From an archaeon (lineage in GTDB: Archaea; Undinarchaeota; CAZHTU01; JBDRCC01): a stretch of DNA of 64,000 nucleotides. Shown in pieces: positions 23,709 to 43,724 of the stretch. The stretch is taken from NCBI GenBank assembly GCA_043822065.1, contig JBDRCC010000007.1, positions 32,001 through 96,000 on the forward strand, written 5' to 3'. Under the pieces are notes generated by a model. It was not told the DNA's origin, made no database searches, and saw nothing but the letters and a program-made list of their open reading frames with translations. Every line of letters starts with the position of its first letter. Position 1 is the stretch's first letter. Both the position numbers and the translations under genes were made by a program.

Positions 23709-24388
23709 TGCACCTTAAGAGAACCTGTTCGCCAACATTTTGGCCCATAATACGGAAGCAGAAAACATGGGCGGTCAGGCCGGCTTCTCGCGGATTCATG
23801 CTTAACGAGTCTATGCCTCTGCTCCTGGTAATCCGGGATGTCCTTGGCGAGACAAAGACGCTTAGGGAGACAAAGAAGCTCCTTAACCAGGGTGTTGTCA
23901 CAGTCAACGGCAAGGACCGGACGGATTACCGGTTCCCGGTAGGCCTCTTTGACATAATACACATAACGCCGATTAAAAAAACTTACATCGTCGTCCCGTC
24001 CAAGAAAGGAATTGGGATAAAGGAGACTAAGCCGGCAAGCTCAGCTCTCATGAAGATAACGAACAAGGTAGCAAACGGCAAGGACGCTTACCAGTACACG
24101 TTCCACAATGGGATGACCATTAACCTGAACAAGAGCTACAAGATAGGCGACTCGCTCGTCATCGGCTTCGACGGAAAGGTCCAGGGCTCTTTTGAGATGA
24201 AAGAAGGCACCTACGCAGTAATCACTGGCGGAAGGCGGCGCGGCGCCCAGGGAAAAATTACGTCAATAACCCTACCTGCCTTCACCGGCTCTAAAATGGT
24301 TGCAATAGAGGGCGAGGGCGGCTCGTACATCACAAAATATGATTATGTCTTCCCATGCGGAAAGGCAAAGCCGGAGGTTGACTTATGA
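23708..24388 (+). CDS. rps4e: 30S ribosomal protein S4e
   Basis: HLKR...WPIIRK, DYRFPVGLFD, VITGG. Confidence 0.96.
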   Translation: MHLKRTCSPTFWPIIRKQKTWAVRPASRGFMLNESMPLLLVIRDVLGETKTLRETKKLLNQGVVTVNGKDRTDYRFPVGLFDIIHITPIKKTYIVVPSKKGIGIKETKPASSALMKITNKVANGKDAYQYTFHNGMTINLNKSYKIGDSLVIGFDGKVQGSFEMKEGTYAVITGGRRRGAQGKITSITLPAFTGSKMVAIEGEGGSYITKYDYVFPCGKAKPEVDL

Positions 24389-37828: not shown

Positions 37829-38802
37829 CCGTCGGCTTTCTCGAAATTAACGAGATACAAAAGATTAAGCCCGCACTGGAAACGGAGTTCTCCAGTGGCG
37901 AATCTGTTGCAATAAAGCTCCATATGGGCGAAACTTACAACAAGAACTTCCTAAAGCCGGCTTTCGTCAGGCAGTTCGTGGATGCCCTGACAAGCATCGG
38001 GTGCGAGCCCTTCCTCTTTGACTCGCCGACGCTCTACCGGGGCGGGAGGTCGAATTCCACAGCCTACATGCTCACTGCCGCGAAGAATGGATTCACAAAA
38101 AAGGCAATTGGCTGCCCAATAAAAATCTCAAACCGCGCAGAATACTTCCCGTCCGAGCACTTCGACGTCGGCGTCTGCAAGCACCTCCTTGAAGCCGACG
38201 GCGTCTTTGTCCTCAGCCATGTGAAGGGTCATGTGTGCGCAGGGTTTGGCGCCGCCATAAAGAACATTGGCATGGGCGCGCTTGACAAGAAGACCAAAGG
38301 TGCGATACACAACGGGGGCAAGCCGGTTTACACCGAAGGCTGCACAGAATGCGGCGTATGCTCAAAGGCATGCCCATTCGGCAGCATATACTACAAGGGC
38401 AGCAGGCCGCATTTCGACGGCGGCTACTGCAGCGGCTGCGGCGTTTGCATACTCTCGTGCCCTCAAAAACTGATAAAGCCGAAGATTGCAATGTTCGACC
38501 TCCTGCTTGCAGAAGGCGCGGCGGTTGCGTACAAGCAATTCAAGAAATCGTATTTCGCGAACGCCATGCTGCAAGTCTCCAAGTGGTGCGACTGCGCCCC
38601 GTCCTCAGAGATAATCGCCAAGGACGTCGGAATTGTCCACGGCAAAGACCCGGTTGCAGCTGACAAGGCGGCCTACGACCTGCTAAAGGAACGCGAGGGC
38701 GGGGACGTCTTCTACAAGGCAAACCGAAAGAGCCCGCTTGACCACATCCGCGCCGCGAGCAGGCTCGACATGGGCACGCTCCAGTACTCTCTAAAAAAAT
38801 GA
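37813..38802 (+). CDS. DUF362 family Fe-S protein with 2x[4Fe-4S] ferredoxin domain
   Basis: AIKLHMGE, SHVKGH...GFGAAIKNIGMG, CTECGVCSKACP, CSGCGVCILSCP, CDC. Confidence 0.9.
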   Translation: MENKVTVGFLEINEIQKIKPALETEFSSGESVAIKLHMGETYNKNFLKPAFVRQFVDALTSIGCEPFLFDSPTLYRGGRSNSTAYMLTAAKNGFTKKAIGCPIKISNRAEYFPSEHFDVGVCKHLLEADGVFVLSHVKGHVCAGFGAAIKNIGMGALDKKTKGAIHNGGKPVYTEGCTECGVCSKACPFGSIYYKGSRPHFDGGYCSGCGVCILSCPQKLIKPKIAMFDLLLAEGAAVAYKQFKKSYFANAMLQVSKWCDCAPSSEIIAKDVGIVHGKDPVAADKAAYDLLKEREGGDVFYKANRKSPLDHIRAASRLDMGTLQYSLKK

Positions 38803-39413
38803 CCGAAAAAAAGCCAGAGCATTACTTTACAAGCAGGCAGACGTCAGAGATAAAGTACGGCATAGTAAAAGCGACAATCCTTGGCAGGGAATACAGCTTC
38901 TATACGTGCTCCGGGCTGTTCTCCTGGAAAGAAATAGACCGCGGCACATGGACATTGATAAAATACATGCGGCTCCCTGACGCAGGCAGCATACTCGACC
39001 TCGGCTGCGGCTTTGGCGCGGTCGGCATCGTCGCAGCAGCGCTCAAGCCGCAGGGCAAAGTCCTGCTCACTGACATCAACTACCGCGCAGTCCACATGGC
39101 AAGAAAAACCATCAAGGAGATGGAGCTGTCCAATGCAAGCGCCAGGACCGGGAACTTATTTGAGAAAATTCCTGAAAAGTTCGACACCATACTTGTAAAC
39201 CCCCCTTTTGCAGCAGGGCTTGAGACTGTCTTCCGCTTTATCGCCGAGTCTAAGCAACATTTATATCCGCACGGGACATTACAGGTAGTGGCGCGCCACA
39301 ACAAGGGCGGGGCGCGAGTGCAGGAGAAAATCGAGGACGTCTTCGGCAATTCCGAAGTGCTTGGAAAGTCCGGCGGCTTCCGGGTCTACATGGGAACTAA
39401 TGAACATAAATGA
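38799..39413 (+). CDS. Class I SAM methyltransferase, RsmC/MTS family
   Basis: EHYF, GLFS..EIDRGT, LDLGCGFG, NPPF. Confidence 0.92.
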   Translation: MTEKKPEHYFTSRQTSEIKYGIVKATILGREYSFYTCSGLFSWKEIDRGTWTLIKYMRLPDAGSILDLGCGFGAVGIVAAALKPQGKVLLTDINYRAVHMARKTIKEMELSNASARTGNLFEKIPEKFDTILVNPPFAAGLETVFRFIAESKQHLYPHGTLQVVARHNKGGARVQEKIEDVFGNSEVLGKSGGFRVYMGTNEHK

Positions 39414-40119
39414 GATAGTCGACCGCTACAAGTCTGCGAGCGAATCAGAGTTCTACGAGCGCATAAAAAACAGCCTTGACATCGAAAAAATCCTTTTCCT
39501 TTACGGCAGGTCTGTCTCCGTCTTTGAGCTTATGATACTCCTCCAGAAGAAGGCGGACTCCTGGAAGCTCCAGACAAACCGTGACCGCCTTTACTCAGCC
39601 CTTTCCCACAGGCTCAACGCCCAGTACGCCGGGGGCAATATCCTCCTCCAGCCAATGGCAAACTTTGACGAGGACCTGCACTTCCTGATACAGAAGGTTG
39701 TCCGGGACAATGGCATTCCCCTGTATGAGGGGGAGTTTAAGGTTGTATCTCCGAAGATGCTGACCCAGACCTCGAACAGCATACTTAGGACATACCTCAA
39801 GCTAAGGTTCACAACCGAGCGCGACTTCCTCGGCGCGTTTGAAAAAGCCGAATCCCAGCTTGCAAAGCACATAGCCCGCGCAACAGACGGCCTCCGCCTT
39901 GCCGCCACTGATGCGGAGCTGCTCACTTTTCTTGCGGCATTCTACAAGGACATTCTGAACCTTGAGAAGAACCAGGCCAAGGCTATTTATTCCCAGAAGG
40001 CTGCAGAGCTCAACCTGGTCAGCCGCATGAAAAGGAAGTACGCCTTGACAGACGAGGAAACAACCGCGCTCAGGTACACGATTTACAAGGCAGTCAAGGA
40101 CATCTGCGACCACGTCTAG
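39400..40119 (+). CDS. Hypothetical protein
   Basis: 239-codon ORF overlapping the upstream gene, host-like codon use, no recognised motif. Confidence 0.7.
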   Translation: MNINEIVDRYKSASESEFYERIKNSLDIEKILFLYGRSVSVFELMILLQKKADSWKLQTNRDRLYSALSHRLNAQYAGGNILLQPMANFDEDLHFLIQKVVRDNGIPLYEGEFKVVSPKMLTQTSNSILRTYLKLRFTTERDFLGAFEKAESQLAKHIARATDGLRLAATDAELLTFLAAFYKDILNLEKNQAKAIYSQKAAELNLVSRMKRKYALTDEETTALRYTIYKAVKDICDHV

Positions 40120-40571
40120 CTATAGCTGTGCTTTACGTCCTCTTTGTACACTTTTGCAATTCTTATCCCCTCTGTCTGGGCCACGCCCTCCACCTTTGCA
40201 AACTTCTTTGCGGACAGCTCATAGTAGGCGTCGTTGTCCTGCGTCCTTATCTTAAGTAGGATACCCCACGTGCCTATCATCCAGTATGCCTCTTCGACTT
40301 CTGGATTCTTAAGGAGCTCCTTGACGACTGTCTCGGCGTCCGCATTTGCCCGCAGCCGTATCCTCATGTATGTGAGTATGGGAAGCCCAATCTTTGCCGG
40401 GTCGACAAGCGGGACCATCTTCTTCACAGTACCATCCTTTTGCATCCTGCCTATGCGCTCCCTGACCGTAGACGGCGGGATGCCGAGCTTCCGCCCAATG
40501 CTGACGCTTTGGGGGACGCAGTAGCCTCCCTCCTGCATAATTTTTAGAATCTGCTTGTCCATGTCGTCCAT
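40116..40571 (-). CDS. Lrp/AsnC family transcriptional regulator
   Basis: DDMDKQILK, LGIPPSTVRERI HTH, VDPAKIG, RAM domain PEVEEAYWMIG. Confidence 0.93.
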   Translation of the reverse strand: MDDMDKQILKIMQEGGYCVPQSVSIGRKLGIPPSTVRERIGRMQKDGTVKKMVPLVDPAKIGLPILTYMRIRLRANADAETVVKELLKNPEVEEAYWMIGTWGILLKIRTQDNDAYYELSAKKFAKVEGVAQTEGIRIAKVYKEDVKHSYS

Positions 40572-40699: not shown

Positions 40700-40787
40700 G
40701 CGGAGGTGGCACAATCTGGTACTGCGCAAGCCTGGAAAGCTTGTGGGCCCTTGGCCCTTGGGAGTTCAAATCTCCCCCTCCGCGCCA
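40700..40787 (+). tRNA. tRNA-Ser(GGA), CCA encoded
   Basis: GCGGAGG/CCTCCGC + G + CCA, CAAGC-CTGGAAA-GCTTG, variable arm GGGCC/GGCCC. Confidence 0.95.
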
Positions 40788-40836
40788 TACTATCCGACAG
40801 CAAACTTCAAGAACAGGATTGCCTTACATAAATAAT

Positions 40837-41799
40837 ATGGCACATTACAGCCGATTTTTCGCCTATGGGCTCGTGGCGATTGTTTTGTTAGTTTCGACCG
40901 CGACGGCATATGTGAACCCTCCAGCATGCCCGCCTGATGCCCAGTTTGGACTAAAGCCGATGGATGAGGGTCTCGCCAGCGAATCGCTTTGCCGCGGGGC
41001 GTGCGGCCCGGACTGCCCGGATACGTGCACGGATGAGCCGGATGAACAGATTTGCATTACTGACTCCTCAGACGAGTCATTCTACACATGCACCTACACT
41101 GGGATAAAGCGGTGCGGGACGCATGAGGCGTGTATCGTGCACGACGCGCGCTATGACGCGTGCGCGGAAAAGGGTGAGACCAAGCTATGCCTCGAAGGTG
41201 GCTGGTGCCACTGCCGTGCAGACTTCATGTGCGGTGTAAACTCGTGGTACTCCCCATGGAACTGCTTCTCCTGGAAGAATGGCGAGGGGCCTTACACAGG
41301 TTACCAGAAATACTACGCAAAGGTGGTCGAGGACGGGCCGTTCCCGTATTGCCCTGGGAAGGAGCCAGAGAAAATCGCAGAGGTCGTGGCAGGCGATGCA
41401 TCATGCAAAATAATCGAGAAATACACCGGCGATGTCACGGGAGTACTCCGTAATATGGGCGCCAAATACGCCAGGATTTATGAGATACGTTCATCCGGTT
41501 CCATGTCTGGCTCGGTAGGGGCTAAGATGGACCTCTCAACAGATCCGATAGTGGGCACTGCGACGCCAGCTCAGCTGGACTGTGGCGGGTGGATGAACGA
41601 CTTGTTCTCCAGCGGGTGCGTGAGGCAATCAAATTCCGCGCCTGAACTGGCAGAGTGGTCGTATACTACGAGGGCCTACGGAGAACAGGTCAATGTGAAC
41701 CCCAACCTCCAGGTAAAAGTCAATTTGAAAGCGAGCATTGATTACAAGACCATGGACGAGGCGACTGCCACAGCAACCTGCCCTGCAGTGAATTATTAG
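40837..41799 (+). CDS. Secreted Cys-rich protein with PLA2-like CxxHD motif
   Basis: Signal peptide ending ATA-Y; CRGACGPDCPDTC; ACIVHDARYDAC; beta-rich C-terminal domain. Confidence 0.8.
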   Translation: MAHYSRFFAYGLVAIVLLVSTATAYVNPPACPPDAQFGLKPMDEGLASESLCRGACGPDCPDTCTDEPDEQICITDSSDESFYTCTYTGIKRCGTHEACIVHDARYDACAEKGETKLCLEGGWCHCRADFMCGVNSWYSPWNCFSWKNGEGPYTGYQKYYAKVVEDGPFPYCPGKEPEKIAEVVAGDASCKIIEKYTGDVTGVLRNMGAKYARIYEIRSSGSMSGSVGAKMDLSTDPIVGTATPAQLDCGGWMNDLFSSGCVRQSNSAPELAEWSYTTRAYGEQVNVNPNLQVKVNLKASIDYKTMDEATATATCPAVNY

Positions 41800-41849
41800 C
41801 GTTTTATGGATGAATCTGGGTGACTTTCGTGCCGCTAACTCAACTTGCG

Positions 41850-41864
41850 CCCCCTCCGCGCCAT
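41850..41864 (+). repeat. attR-like duplicate of the tRNA-Ser(GGA) 3' end
   Basis: 15/15 identity to 40774-40788. Confidence 0.8.
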
Positions 41865-41907
41865 CTCTGTCAAAAGCTTTAATAACTGCCTCAACTGTAT
41901 CAAGTGC

Positions 41908-43080
41908 ATGGGGGTTGGTTCATCTCTCAAGGGCAACCGCTACTTTAAAATTTTTCTTATATTCCTCGGCATCTACCTTTTCCTGTGCGCCCTGACCGGA
42001 TTCAAGGACAGCTGGGTCATGGCGTTCGCAATCGGGGGGAAGGAAAGCTTCGCAAGGAAGGTTGTCGGCGGCGTTGTCCAGAACCCGTTTACAGCTCTTT
42101 TTGCAGGAATACTCGCTACATCCCTAATCCAGAGCAGCTCCGCGACGGTTGCGATAACTATTGCGATGGTCGCGGCAGGCGGCATTACCATTGCCGAGTC
42201 AGTTCCACTCATCATGGGCGCAAACATCGGCACCACTGTGACGATGACTCTCGTAAGCATGGCATATGCCTTCCGGAAGCAGGAATTCTCAAAGGTAGTC
42301 CCAGCCGCCCTTGTTGACGACTTGTTCAAGTTCTTCAACGTAGCAATATTCTTCGCTTTGGAGCTCACGACGCATGTGCTAAGCAGGACCGCCGCGTACA
42401 TCTCGCAGTTCTTGGGCGCCCTTCCCCTCTTTGGGGAGTTCCTCAGCCTCTTCCCCGACTTTGTTGACATCCTGACCGCGCCAATCGTCGGCCCGATGTC
42501 TGGCGCCATCGCCGGTGCATTGGGCGAAACCCCCCTTTCCGCACTTGCTCTTGGCATCGCCTCGTTTATGCTCCTGGCGTACGGGCTGAAAGTAATGTCA
42601 GACTCTGTCCGGGACCTCACTGAGTCGCAGGCGGACCACTTGCTGAAAAAGGCATTCAAGAATCCTCGGCGGAGCCTTGCCGTCGGATTTTCGCTCTGCT
42701 GGATACTGCAGTCCAGCTCGGTCGCAACTTCCTTGATTGTCCCGTTTGTCGCAGCAGGGCTCGTTAAGGTGAAGGATGTCTACCACTACGCCATGGGCGC
42801 AGCGCTTGGAACGACCTGCGACGCCGGGCAGATTATTTCCTACTTGAAATTCGGGCTAATCGGGCTTGGCGTCGGCCTCGTCCACGTCCTCCTCAACCTT
42901 TTTGGCATTATCATATTCTCTTTCGTGCCAGTCCTGAAAGACCTTCCCATATTGGTCGCCGAAAAAATAGGGGATAGCATCGCCCGCTCCAAGCAGGGCG
43001 CGCTGCTTTTCATTATCCTGGTTGTGGCGGTTTTTTATATACTGCCGCTATTAGTGATATTTATTGGAGGGGGACTATGA
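41908..43080 (+). CDS. Na+/phosphate symporter (NptA/SLC34 family)
   Basis: Two QSSS repeats (LIQSSSAT, ILQSSSVATS), MGANIGTT, GAALGTT. Confidence 0.93.
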   Translation: MGVGSSLKGNRYFKIFLIFLGIYLFLCALTGFKDSWVMAFAIGGKESFARKVVGGVVQNPFTALFAGILATSLIQSSSATVAITIAMVAAGGITIAESVPLIMGANIGTTVTMTLVSMAYAFRKQEFSKVVPAALVDDLFKFFNVAIFFALELTTHVLSRTAAYISQFLGALPLFGEFLSLFPDFVDILTAPIVGPMSGAIAGALGETPLSALALGIASFMLLAYGLKVMSDSVRDLTESQADHLLKKAFKNPRRSLAVGFSLCWILQSSSVATSLIVPFVAAGLVKVKDVYHYAMGAALGTTCDAGQIISYLKFGLIGLGVGLVHVLLNLFGIIIFSFVPVLKDLPILVAEKIGDSIARSKQGALLFIILVVAVFYILPLLVIFIGGGL

Positions 43081-43724
43081 GCTTTTCAGAAATAGTGAGG
43101 ATGGTCAAGAGCAATACATTCCTATCGGAGGCGCTTGAGTCCTCAAAGATCATGCACACAAAAGTGCTGGAGATGATTGAGGACAGCTGGAAAGCGGTCG
43201 AGACTGGGGATAAGAAGCTCGCAGACGGCGTTATTGGCAGGGACGATGAGATCGATAACTTGGACAGGAAGATCCGCACTAATGTCCTTAACTACCTCTC
43301 CTCCATGCCAAAGGGCGGAAACGTGGCGCTTTCGCTCATACTTATCGACATATCGACCTACCTTGAGCGGACTGCGGACCACGCAGTCTGGATTGCAGAG
43401 GCTGCCCGCAGGTCTCCTCACCTGAGTGAGGGCCCATACAAAAAGAAGCTTCTCCAGCTCAAAGGTCTTGTCGTGAAAGTCGGCAACGGCGCAAAAGTCG
43501 CCTTCAAGGAGAGCGACCCCGAGAAAGCCAAGGCAGTGCTCCAGGACGTAGAAACGTCCAAACGGCTTTTCTTTGAGATTGTCGACGCGCTCCGCGAGGA
43601 CAAGAAGATTTCAACTTCACAGGCAATCTACAAATGGACCATCGCCCAGGAGCTGAGGCGCATGACGCAGTATGCGAAGAATATCGCGCTTAACGTTCTG
43701 GAGCCTTATCCGGACGCGAAGTAA
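43077..43724 (+). CDS. PhoU-family phosphate uptake regulator
   Basis: DDEIDNLD, LERTADHA..IAE, second repeat LRRMTQYAKNIA; coupled to the Na/Pi gene. Confidence 0.88.
   Translation: MSFSEIVRMVKSNTFLSEALESSKIMHTKVLEMIEDSWKAVETGDKKLADGVIGRDDEIDNLDRKIRTNVLNYLSSMPKGGNVALSLILIDISTYLERTADHAVWIAEAARRSPHLSEGPYKKKLLQLKGLVVKVGNGAKVAFKESDPEKAKAVLQDVETSKRLFFEIVDALREDKKISTSQAIYKWTIAQELRRMTQYAKNIALNVLEPYPDAK

What the first reader, a model, noticed from the sequence alone, without database searches (positions are those of the whole stretch)
40774..41864. Minimal integrase-less islet: one gene between perfect tRNA-derived att repeats
Seen: the last bases of tRNA-Ser(GGA) including CCA (CCCCCTCCGCGCCAT) are duplicated exactly 1076 nt downstream. 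Between them is a single secreted-protein gene with only about 50 nt of spacer on each side, and no integrase or replication gene. Known: tyrosine-integrase elements duplicate tRNA 3' ends as attL/attR. Inference: a non-autonomous cassette mobilised in trans and possibly expressed by read-through from the tRNA promoter, or the remnant of a larger island.
Basis: partly seen in the sequence, partly recalled or inferred. Interest (0 to 1): 0.75.

Follow-up and report, generated by a model that had tools for sequence, protein, structure and literature searches.

The report
One-gene insert behind tRNA-Ser
A single gene for a secreted, toxin-like protein sits behind a serine tRNA gene of a tiny uncultured archaeon, bracketed by a second copy of the tRNA's last 15 bases: a probable insertion scar with no recombinase gene of its own, a known kind of footprint in an unusually minimal form.

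Summary
The 15-mer CCCCCTCCGCGCCAT ends tRNA-Ser(GGA) at 40774-40788 and recurs at 41850-41864. The 1,061 nt between hold one ORF (40837-41799, 320 aa) with 48- and 50-nt spacers, no recombinase and no inverted ends.

Chance is unlikely, given E 2e-4 in a 10-kb search. In this genome tRNA-end copies lie almost only outward and direct: 9 hits against 1 weak hit in six control geometries, over 34 tRNAs.

A second locus on the same contig, behind tRNA-Tyr, has four one-gene units separated by decayed tRNA-Tyr ends. I therefore read the islet as a real, non-autonomous one-gene insertion.

Cassette integrated in trans or trimmed relic cannot be settled. There are no close relatives, no informative reads, and the only tyrosine recombinase in the 82%-complete genome is XerA.

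The cargo joins a Cys-rich His-Asp domain, common in eCIS-core proteins and found next to PLAT domains, to a beta-sandwich domain of DPANN-type lipoproteins.

Earlier notes of this scan report similar integrase-less tRNA-anchored cassettes in other small-genome archaea. This is a new member of a known kind, of moderate interest.

The parts
40700..40787 (+). tRNA-Ser(GGA), intact, CCA encoded; the only tRNA with this anticodon found in the genome
   Evidence: ARAGORN; Rfam RF00005 56 bits
40774..40788 (+). left copy of the 15-nt direct repeat (attL-like): last 3 nt of the T stem, the 3' acceptor strand, the discriminator, CCA and 1 further nt
40789..40836 (+). 48-nt left spacer; no T-run terminator after the tRNA; a TATA-like CATAAATAAT only at -10..-1 of the ATG, none at the genome's usual -35..-26
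40837..41799 (+). cargo gene, 320 aa, stop included: N-terminal hydrophobic segment (residues 12-26), Cys-rich His-Asp domain (about residues 25-175), beta-sandwich domain (about residues 173-320)
40909..41361 (+). N-domain coding part: H102, D103 and D107 are invariant in 36 aligned sequences. In the 24 long relatives tested, the family occurs in eCIS_core proteins (16 of 24) and beside PLAT domains (4 of 24)
   Evidence: model pLDDT 93.2
41353..41796 (+). C-domain coding part: beta-sandwich with 4 conserved Cys; relatives are the C-terminal domains of lipobox/He_PIG proteins, including two DPANN-type MAG records
41800..41849 (+). 50-nt right spacer with a T4 run at 41802-41805 just after the stop; no inverted repeat with the left end
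41850..41864 (+). right copy of the 15-nt repeat (attR-like); no tRNA-like or hairpin structure around it
41878..41885 (+). TATA-like TTTAATAA at -30..-23 of the Na/Pi cotransporter ATG: the right-hand neighbour has its own canonical promoter just outside the repeat
41908..43080 (+). right neighbour: Na+/Pi cotransporter, followed by PhoU at 43077-43724; not part of the insert
   Evidence: Pfam PF02690 2.3e-37, PF01895 2.4e-26
40116..40571 (-). left neighbour: Lrp/AsnC regulator; not part of the insert
   Evidence: Pfam PF01037, PF13404

Best explanation
The 15-nt repeat is a genuine insertion footprint. A piece of about 1.06 kb, carrying one gene plus about 50 nt on each side, entered the chromosome at the 3' end of tRNA-Ser(GGA). 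Recombination took place within a short stretch identical to the tRNA's last 14 nt plus 1 nt. This left an intact tRNA on the left (attL-like) and a displaced tRNA end on the right (attR-like), next to the untouched promoter of the Na/Pi transporter gene.

The piece has no recombinase, so it is non-autonomous. I think it most likely arrived as a small cassette integrated by an enzyme supplied in trans, from a virus, a plasmid, the unassembled 18% of the genome, or possibly the host XerA. The one-gene units stacked behind tRNA-Tyr on the same contig would have arisen the same way.

The cargo is a secreted or membrane-anchored two-domain protein: a toxin-type Cys-rich His-Asp domain plus a beta-sandwich binding-type domain. 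It may be transcribed from the tRNA promoter.

Shown: the repeat, its register on the tRNA, the single gene, the lack of a recombinase, the same-genome analogues and the domain kinship. Inferred: integration by site-specific recombination, the trans-acting enzyme, the cassette form, and the mode of expression.
For: The repeat is exact, and its left copy is the functional tRNA end.

Geometry in this genome: over 34 tRNAs, end copies occur as 3'-end-downstream/direct (4) and 5'-end-upstream/direct (5). The six control geometries gave 1 weak 12-nt hit.

A second gene-sized case lies 50 kb upstream on the same contig. The tRNA-Tyr 3' end has copies at C7:22981 (94% over 31 nt, z 19) and decayed copies at 24114, 24699, 25951 and 26408 (z 9.1, 4.3, 3.7, 4.8). 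Of the five copies, four score above and one equals the 99th percentile of 400 control windows. Each of the first four intervals holds exactly one ORF of 90 aa or more: a 118-aa protein, ACR3, a 170-aa membrane protein and an MFS transporter.

There is no integrase fragment or other ORF in the 48- and 50-nt spacers. The cargo was not found in 40 relatives. Its two domains are otherwise found only separately: no other protein of 244 clusters carries both.

The perfect repeat together with host-like codon usage (76th percentile of 643 ORFs) and tetranucleotide usage (74th percentile) fits exchange within a related gene pool. So does the DPANN-type C-domain.

The Na/Pi promoter lies immediately outside the right copy, as expected if that flank is the original tRNA downstream region.
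Against: No mobility was shown. No empty site, circular junction or second location of the cassette turned up in one low-coverage run, metagenome contigs, genome contigs or viral contigs.

No dedicated integrase was found. The single tyrosine recombinase is an XerA equivalog at 258.9 bits against a cut-off of 220.

Fifteen nt is short, and only one cassette is present here. The gene's composition gives no sign of foreign origin.

The tRNA-Tyr units differ in detail: their scars follow the stop codon within 1-5 nt, are longer, and their genes have atypical codon usage (84th-99th percentile). The two loci therefore need not share a mechanism.

In two relatives, 0-1 of 68 tRNAs has a gene-sized insert of this kind within the flank of up to 1.5 kb held for each locus.
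Confidence: 0.45

Rival explanations
1. Deletion relic. A larger integrase-bearing element (virus, plasmid or island) integrated at tRNA-Ser(GGA). Genome streamlining then removed everything except one useful gene and the two att copies. This would be a CIME-like remnant that never moved as a one-gene unit.
For: This is the documented route to att-flanked, integrase-less elements (CIME definition, passages of PMC5704250). Remnants and partial tRNAs are reported in tRNA-anchored islands (passages of bioRxiv 10.1101/2020.12.28.424599). Archaeal elements of 9-23 kb flanked by partial tRNA genes are also documented (passages of PMC9897764). The genome is small and compact. Host-like composition of the gene would fit long residence.
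Against: Two clean deletions flush to both att copies would be needed, and no gene fragment is left in 98 nt of spacer. Long residence sits badly with a still perfect, apparently unconstrained right copy. There is no residual similarity to the tRNA upstream of the right copy, so the original identity was probably only about 15 nt. That is shorter than the 44-bp repeats quoted for the archaeal island PYG1. Four further one-gene units at tRNA-Tyr would each need the same history.
Confidence: 0.25
2. Target-site duplication. The 15 nt were duplicated by a staggered-cut, transposition-like insertion, by the same unknown machinery that spreads the small hairpin inserts at tRNA ends in this lineage (casposon-like in its geometry). 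The element did not bring them.
For: tRNA-end duplications of 16-22 nt around inserts of about 45-75 nt are very common here. There are 8 strong hits on 7 of 34 tRNAs in this genome. In the same-order genome G002, 9 of 32 tRNAs have perfect copies 63-69 nt downstream. There are many more in G011. The duplicated stretch changes with the tRNA, as a target duplication would. The islet's repeat has a similar register, ending at or just past the tRNA end. Casposons are said to make 14-15-bp duplications and to use tRNA 3' ends (recalled; no paper read here).
Against: The islet has no terminal inverted repeats: the best local score was 12, against a shuffle mean of 14.4. The islet shows no similarity to any small insert of this genome (blastn-short). 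No Cas1 was found, and no resolvase; the only TnpB-like hit is below threshold, though the genome is 82% complete. The islet's repeat starts 4-6 nt later than the (A)ATC start typical of the small inserts.
Confidence: 0.12
3. Coincidence. The second 15-mer is a chance C-rich match in the upstream region of the Na/Pi gene, and the 320-aa gene is an ordinary resident gene.
For: The repeat is short and C-rich. Exact 15-mers of the islet match elsewhere in the 1-Mb genome several times by chance. There is no compositional anomaly. No relative is close enough to show the ancestral state.
Against: The match is E 2e-4 in a 10-kb search. The 14-mer occurs nowhere else in the genome. It covers exactly the tRNA's terminal bases, in direct orientation, on the outward side, as do all strong tRNA-end copies in this genome. 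It brackets exactly one gene that was not found in 40 relatives.
Confidence: 0.08

Closest known systems
tRNA-targeting integrative elements with attL/attR (archaeal and bacterial islands, proviruses, integrated plasmids)
   Same: An intact tRNA gene on one side, a partial copy of its 3' end on the other, in direct orientation, with accessory cargo between (passages of PMC9897764).
   Different: There is no integrase inside. The size is 1.06 kb with one gene, against the 9-23 kb quoted for archaeal cases. The repeat is 15 nt, against 44 bp for the PYG1 example.
CIMEs (cis-mobilizable elements) of streptococcal ICE/IME systems
   Same: An element that keeps attL and attR but has no integration or transfer genes (definition in PMC5704250).
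   Different: CIMEs are defined as decay products of ICEs or IMEs and move by accretion with an incoming ICE. Neither the origin by decay nor any helper element was seen here. The host is an archaeon.
Additive tRNA-anchored islands (tycheposon islands of Prochlorococcus)
   Same: Successive insertions at one tRNA push older ones inward, leaving partial tRNA copies between units. Remnants without integrases occur (passages of bioRxiv 10.1101/2020.12.28.424599). The tRNA-Tyr array of this genome has that layout.
   Different: Tycheposons carry their own tyrosine or serine recombinase and often replication genes. Here the units are single genes, and no such recombinase was found in the genome.
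Integron gene cassettes and CALINs, also reported in archaeal MAGs
   Same: One gene per unit, a recombination site at the cassette's end, and arrays without a nearby integrase (CALINs) that could be served in trans (passages of PMC9668308).
   Different: There is no attC-type imperfect palindrome at the boundary. The site is a tRNA 3' end. The only recombinase scores below the integron-integrase cut-off.
Casposons (Cas1-solo transposons)
   Same: A duplication of about 15 nt at a tRNA 3' end (recalled, not read here).
   Different: There are no terminal inverted repeats, no Cas1 or polymerase, and only one cargo gene.

Membership tests
tRNA-targeting tyrosine-integrase element (attL/attR) | Direct repeat that duplicates part of the target tRNA, one copy being part of an intact tRNA gene | tested here: met
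   15/15 nt at 40774-40788 and 41850-41864; tRNA intact
tRNA-targeting tyrosine-integrase element (attL/attR) | Integrase gene inside the bounded segment | tested here: not met
   One long ORF only, with no Pfam or NCBIfam match; spacers of 48 and 50 nt
tRNA-targeting tyrosine-integrase element (attL/attR) | Excision or integration shown by empty site or circular junction | not testable with these tools
   The single run holds only fragments, none across the repeats. Exact-pattern scans found no relative
CIME (cis-mobilizable element) | attL and attR retained, integration and transfer genes absent | tested here: met
   definition from PMC5704250
CIME (cis-mobilizable element) | Derived by decay of an ICE/IME, and mobilisable by an incoming element using the same att | not testable with these tools
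   No related full element and no close relatives
Integron cassette | attC site: imperfect inverted repeat forming a hairpin at the cassette end | tested here: not met
   No inverted repeat at the ends. Folding of 41795-41905 is no better than shuffles, z +1.95
Integron cassette | Integron integrase (IntI) in the genome | tested here: not met
   The only tyrosine recombinase is a XerA equivalog. TIGR02249 scores 194.3 bits against a cut-off of 265. The genome is 82% complete
Casposon | Terminal inverted repeats and a Cas1 casposase | tested here: not met
   No TIRs. PF01867 was not found in the 82%-complete genome
Secreted phospholipase A2 (N-domain of the cargo) | Match to a PLA2 sequence family | tested here: not met
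   0 of 36 aligned members match any PLA2 Pfam family at E up to 1. No PDB sequence match at E up to 10
Secreted phospholipase A2 (N-domain of the cargo) | PLA2 fold | tested here: inconclusive
   The model has pLDDT 93.2. Foldseek against PDB gave a best E of 2.2. VIA wide gave a best Z of 3.4 over 48,161 chains
Secreted phospholipase A2 (N-domain of the cargo) | His-Asp catalytic pair in a disulfide-rich helix | tested here: inconclusive
   H102, D103 and D107 are invariant in 36 sequences and lie on a predicted helix. That this equals the PLA2 motif is recalled, not tested. Atlas feature hits of 0.81-0.83 to clusters partly carrying PLA2 families are a lead only

The most novel reading that the evidence does not exclude
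Small-genome (DPANN-type) archaea have a gene-capture system that works like an integron but is anchored on tRNA 3' ends. Single genes would circulate as tiny cassettes whose only mobility feature is a short mimic of a tRNA end. They would be inserted behind the matching tRNA by an enzyme encoded elsewhere, perhaps the housekeeping XerA or the unknown machinery that also spreads the small hairpin inserts at tRNA ends. Successive captures would build arrays such as the one at tRNA-Tyr. The tRNA-Ser(GGA) islet would be a fresh one-cassette case, expressed from the tRNA promoter.
Probability: 0.3. Interest if true: 0.75.

Novelty: new member of a known kind. Interest (0 to 1): 0.45.

Why it matters
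How tiny, streamlined archaea gain accessory genes is poorly understood, because they show few recognisable mobile elements. If one-gene, recombinase-less inserts at tRNA ends are a regular route, a simple sequence signature would mark recently gained genes in such genomes. A signature of an intact tRNA, one gene and then a displaced tRNA end would also point to an unidentified trans-acting insertion activity.

The cargo has some interest of its own. It joins a domain otherwise seen in eCIS-core multidomain proteins and beside lipid-binding PLAT domains to a cell-surface beta-sandwich domain of DPANN-type archaea. This suggests a contact-dependent or secreted effector of an episymbiont. As a single case with a 15-nt repeat and no comparative proof of mobility, the finding itself is modest.

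Tried and rejected
Locus comparison in relatives. The cargo protein was not found in 40 relatives searched. The nearest genomes are only same-order (tRNA-Ser(GGA) 87% identical) and have different downstream genes, so the ancestral state cannot be read.

Na/Pi transporter relatives in genome contigs reach at most 36% identity.

An exact 24-nt tRNA-end pattern was scanned in metagenome and genome contigs. It gave 5 + 1 loci, all tRNA-Ser(TGA) genes of unrelated organisms with no flank similarity.

Sequencing runs. There was one run with a 0.08 share of words. The laid contigs are fragments, none bridges a repeat, and there is no joint at the islet. This says nothing either way.

Viral contigs. 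There was no relative of the cargo and no exact match to either junction stretch.

Casposon idea. No TIRs and no Cas1.

Link to the small hairpin inserts. There is no sequence similarity between the islet and any of them.

RNA element at the right copy. No Rfam family and no stable fold.

Foreign composition. GC, GC3, codon usage and tetranucleotides are all ordinary.

PLA2 membership of the N-domain. No sequence-family match and no fold match.

A joint alignment of both domains (A3) aligned the C-domain relatives poorly and was replaced by A4 and A5.

An alignment-based locus search failed for lack of conserved columns and was replaced by a single-protein search.

Context of C-domain relatives. 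No tRNA is present in the two loci fetched.
Full report
OBSERVATION. ARAGORN places tRNA-Ser(GGA) at 40700-40787 on the + strand, with CCA encoded. Rfam confirms a tRNA at 56 bits. The 15-mer CCCCCTCCGCGCCAT covers the last 14 nt of the tRNA plus one base (40774-40788). It recurs exactly at 41850-41864, 1,076 nt start to start. Allowing 2 mismatches, these are the only two matches in the window; shuffles gave a mean of 0.25, and 3 of 100 reached two matches. The 14-mer has just these two places in the whole 1,026,769-nt assembly, and the reversed-pattern control has none. The 1,061 nt between the copies hold one long ORF (40837-41799, 320 aa) with 48 nt before it and 50 nt after it.

IS IT CHANCE? 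A blastn-short search of each tRNA's last 32 nt (+3) against 10 kb on either side gives E 2e-4 for this match. The genome holds 143 direct repeats of 15 nt or more with spacing up to 2 kb, most of them inside repeat-containing genes. My rough estimate from that rate for such a repeat landing on the terminal bases of one of the window's six tRNAs is 0.1-2%. The geometry is more telling. Over 34 tRNAs (ARAGORN with introns), copies of tRNA ends were found as 3'-end-downstream/direct (4 hits) and 5'-end-upstream/direct (5 hits, one of them weak). The six other combinations of end, side and strand gave a single weak 12-nt hit. The tRNA-Ser(GGA) repeat belongs to a non-random class.

THE INSERT. 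There are no terminal inverted repeats: the best local score of left end against reversed right end was 12, against a shuffle mean of 14.4. There is no further similarity to the tRNA upstream of the right copy. No RNA family or stable fold lies at the right copy. GC shows no step. Codon usage is at the 76th percentile of 643 long ORFs, GC3 is 0.647 against a genome mean of 0.673, and tetranucleotide distance is at the 74th percentile of 1,061-nt windows. The gene looks compositionally native.

THE CARGO, GENERAL FEATURES. The protein has a hydrophobic N-terminus (residues 12-26) and 20 cysteines, and matches no Pfam or NCBIfam family. An exhaustive HMMER search found 244 clusters at E up to 1e-3. 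These match either residues about 25-175 or residues about 173-320. Apart from the protein itself, none carries both parts.

THE CARGO, N-DOMAIN. In the alignment of 36 sequences, H102, D103 and D107 are invariant. The window protein alone has lost two otherwise near-invariant cysteines, C105 to R and C128 to A, each Cys in 35 of 36. This is a probable paired disulfide loss. I picked 24 long relatives of the N-domain for Pfam scanning. This choice was mine and is biased towards long proteins. Of them, 16 carry an eCIS_core domain, and 4 carry PLAT domains after the N-domain, directly following it in two (P0069, P0113). The AlphaFold model is confident (pLDDT 93.2) but has no solved look-alike. 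Foldseek gave a best E of 2.2, and VIA wide gave a best Z of 3.4 over 48,161 chains. A phospholipase-A2-like function is only a lead. It rests on the His-Asp pair (the resemblance is recalled), the PLAT neighbours, and ESM-Atlas feature hits of 0.81-0.83 to clusters partly annotated with PLA2 families. No PLA2 Pfam family matches any of the 36 members at E up to 1.

THE CARGO, C-DOMAIN. The model (pLDDT 94.1) is a beta-sandwich with weak matches to adhesin and fimbrial domains; the best is E 3e-4 with TM 0.43/0.49. Its relatives are C-terminal domains of lipobox or He_PIG proteins: 4 of 7 scanned carry He_PIG. Two lie in MAG records titled uncultured archaeon and Pacearchaeota.

SURROUNDINGS AND EXPRESSION. 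To the left lies an Lrp/AsnC regulator on the minus strand. To the right lie a Na/Pi cotransporter and PhoU. In this genome TATA-like hexamers pile up at -35..-26 from the ATG of long ORFs: 284 motif hits in those two bins, against 12-41 in the other bins, over 535 ORFs. The Na/Pi gene has such a motif at 41878-41885, just outside the right repeat copy. The cargo gene has none there, only an AT-rich stretch at -10..-1, and no Shine-Dalgarno-like motif. Of the 32 tRNAs from the default ARAGORN run, 15 are followed by TTTT within 20 nt, while tRNA-Ser(GGA) has not even TTT within 15 nt. A T4 run follows the cargo's stop codon. Co-transcription with the tRNA is therefore plausible but untested.

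RECOMBINASES. The assembly has 22 contigs, is 82.35% complete and has 0.05% contamination. It has one Phage_integrase-family gene, on contig C10. This gene is an XerA equivalog at 258.9 bits against a cut-off of 220, and it falls below the integron-integrase cut-off. No Cas1 and no resolvase were found, and the only TnpB-like hit is below threshold.

RELATIVES AND PUBLIC DATA. The cargo was not found in 40 relatives. The organism is alone in its family in the collection. The two same-order genomes have a tRNA-Ser(GGA) 79-87% identical to this one; the closer one lacks encoded CCA and has unrelated downstream genes. One same-phylum genome keeps the methyltransferase-to-tRNA-Ser(GGA) adjacency seen upstream in the window. 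Of 13 relatives' tRNA-Ser(GGA) loci, 2 have a perfect 17- or 21-nt copy of the tRNA end 246 or 115 nt downstream. The 246-nt insert, which I read, is non-coding; I did not read the 115-nt one. No locus showed a copy farther than 246 nt downstream. About 1.3-1.5 kb was held downstream of each, and no integrase search was run on them. Pattern scans, one sequencing run and viral contigs gave nothing usable.

SAME-GENOME CONTEXT. Earlier notes of this scan pointed me to other tRNA-end duplications in this genome, and I checked them.
(a) Short inserts of about 50-75 nt, each with a hairpin, sit behind tRNA-Arg(TCG) and tRNA-Arg(TCT). They also sit in front of tRNA-Pro(TGG), tRNA-Tyr, tRNA-Asn and one more tRNA. 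Each is bracketed by 16-20 nt of that tRNA's own end.
(b) In the same-order genome G002, 9 of 32 tRNAs have a perfect 17-22-nt copy of the 3' end (up to 30 nt where two inserts lie in tandem) 63-69 nt downstream. G011 has many more such copies.
(c) Behind tRNA-Tyr (C7:22333-22445), 50 kb upstream of the islet, the tRNA's 3' end recurs at C7:22981 (94% over 31 nt). It recurs in decayed form at 24114, 24699, 25951 and 26408, with shuffle z of 19, 9.1, 4.3, 3.7 and 4.8. Of the five copies, four score above and one equals the 99th percentile of 400 control windows.
(d) The first four intervals of that array each hold one ORF of 90 aa or more: a 118-aa basic protein, an ACR3 arsenite transporter, a 170-aa membrane protein and an MFS transporter. 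Their codon usage is atypical, at the 84th-99th percentile.
Gene-sized units bounded by tRNA ends thus occur at 2 of 34 tRNAs in this genome. They occur at 0-1 of 68 tRNAs in G002 and G011, within the flank of up to 1.5 kb held for each locus.

READING. The repeat is best explained as an insertion footprint at the tRNA's 3' end. The left copy completes the tRNA, and the right copy marks the old end next to the original downstream flank with the Na/Pi promoter. The insert is non-autonomous.

I favour integration of a small one-gene cassette by an enzyme supplied in trans (0.45). The reasons are the one-gene units at tRNA-Tyr, the absence of any gene debris in 98 nt of spacer, the sharp 15-nt limit of identity, and the combination of a perfect repeat with native-like composition. 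That combination fits exchange among related archaea better than long residence.

The classical alternative is a larger integrase-bearing element trimmed down to one gene (0.25). It is well documented elsewhere: the CIME definition (passages of PMC5704250), remnants in tycheposon islands (passages of bioRxiv 10.1101/2020.12.28.424599), and archaeal islands with partial tRNAs (passages of PMC9897764).

A transposition-like target duplication by the machinery of the small inserts (0.12) is suggested by their abundance and similar register. It lacks inverted ends, shared sequence or a candidate enzyme. Chance (0.08) is not excluded for a 15-mer.

COMPARISON AND NOVELTY. Structurally the islet meets the CIME definition and the att geometry of tRNA-targeting elements. 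It fails their integrase criterion, the attC and IntI criteria of integrons (archaeal integrons and CALINs: passages of PMC9668308), and the TIR and Cas1 criteria of casposons.

My literature searches listed no paper on recombinase-less one-gene cassettes at archaeal tRNA genes. I read only listings and passages of four papers, so I do not claim that this is unpublished. The 'gene capture' idea for Sulfolobus and the casposon duplication length are recalled, not read.

The scan's own earlier notes describe similar integrase-less tRNA-anchored cassettes in several other archaeal genomes. These are unchecked AI notes and not independent evidence, but they mean the kind has been seen before in this scan. 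I file this case as a new member of a known kind (an att-flanked, non-autonomous insert). The bolder, unexcluded reading is that it samples an integron-like, tRNA-anchored capture system of small-genome archaea (probability about 0.3).

LIMITS. The evidence comes from a single MAG and a short repeat. There are no close relatives, no reads across the junctions and no RNA data. Start codons and promoters were inferred from sequence only. Supplementary files of the cited papers were not consulted.

Noticed in passing
G000 contig C7:22333-26430 (9.6-5.6 kb before the window's start; locus L034:2333-6430): An intron-containing tRNA-Tyr is followed by five copies of its own 3' end: one at 94% identity and four decayed. 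The first four of the five intervals they bound each hold one gene: a 118-aa protein, ACR3, a 170-aa membrane protein and an MFS transporter. The codon usage of these genes is atypical.
   Followed up: partly
G000 C1:28624-28733; C7:20609-20703; C7:22264-22352; C8:15555-15656; C8:18349-18441: Short inserts of 49-74 nt, each with a T/A-rich hairpin, sit at tRNA 3' or 5' ends. Each is bracketed by 16-20 nt of that tRNA's own end. The same kind is seen at 9 of 32 tRNAs in the same-order genome G002 and at many tRNAs in G011.
   Followed up: partly
locus L019 (G011:C10), 1588-1850: Behind the tRNA-Ser(GGA) of a same-phylum relative there is a 246-nt non-coding insert, apparently two tandem units. 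It is bounded by a 17-nt copy of the tRNA end. The displaced copy is followed by a T-run and lacks CCA, whereas the tRNA copy has CCA.
   Followed up: partly
window 40837-41799, residues 105 and 128: The cargo's N-domain has lost two cysteines that are Cys in 35 of 36 aligned relatives (to Arg and to Ala). This is a probable coordinated loss of one disulfide, while the invariant His-Asp is kept.
   Followed up: partly
G000 contig C6:39784, 40880, 42499: A repeat of 20-25 nt, preceded by a GGCAGTTCCC-like stretch, recurs three times at spacings of 1,096 and 1,617 nt between small minus-strand genes. It could be a shared promoter or terminator, or another boundary repeat.
   Followed up: no
G000, all contigs: About a third of the tRNA genes encode CCA. 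Of the five Ser tRNA genes found (GGA, TGA, CGA, GCT), only tRNA-Ser(GGA) does. Its closest relative's gene, in G002, does not.
   Followed up: partly
window 38799-40119 compared with locus L018: In a same-phylum relative the methyltransferase gene lies directly before tRNA-Ser(GGA). In the window a 252-aa ORF without family and the Lrp gene lie between them, so the upstream side of this tRNA has also been remodelled.
   Followed up: no
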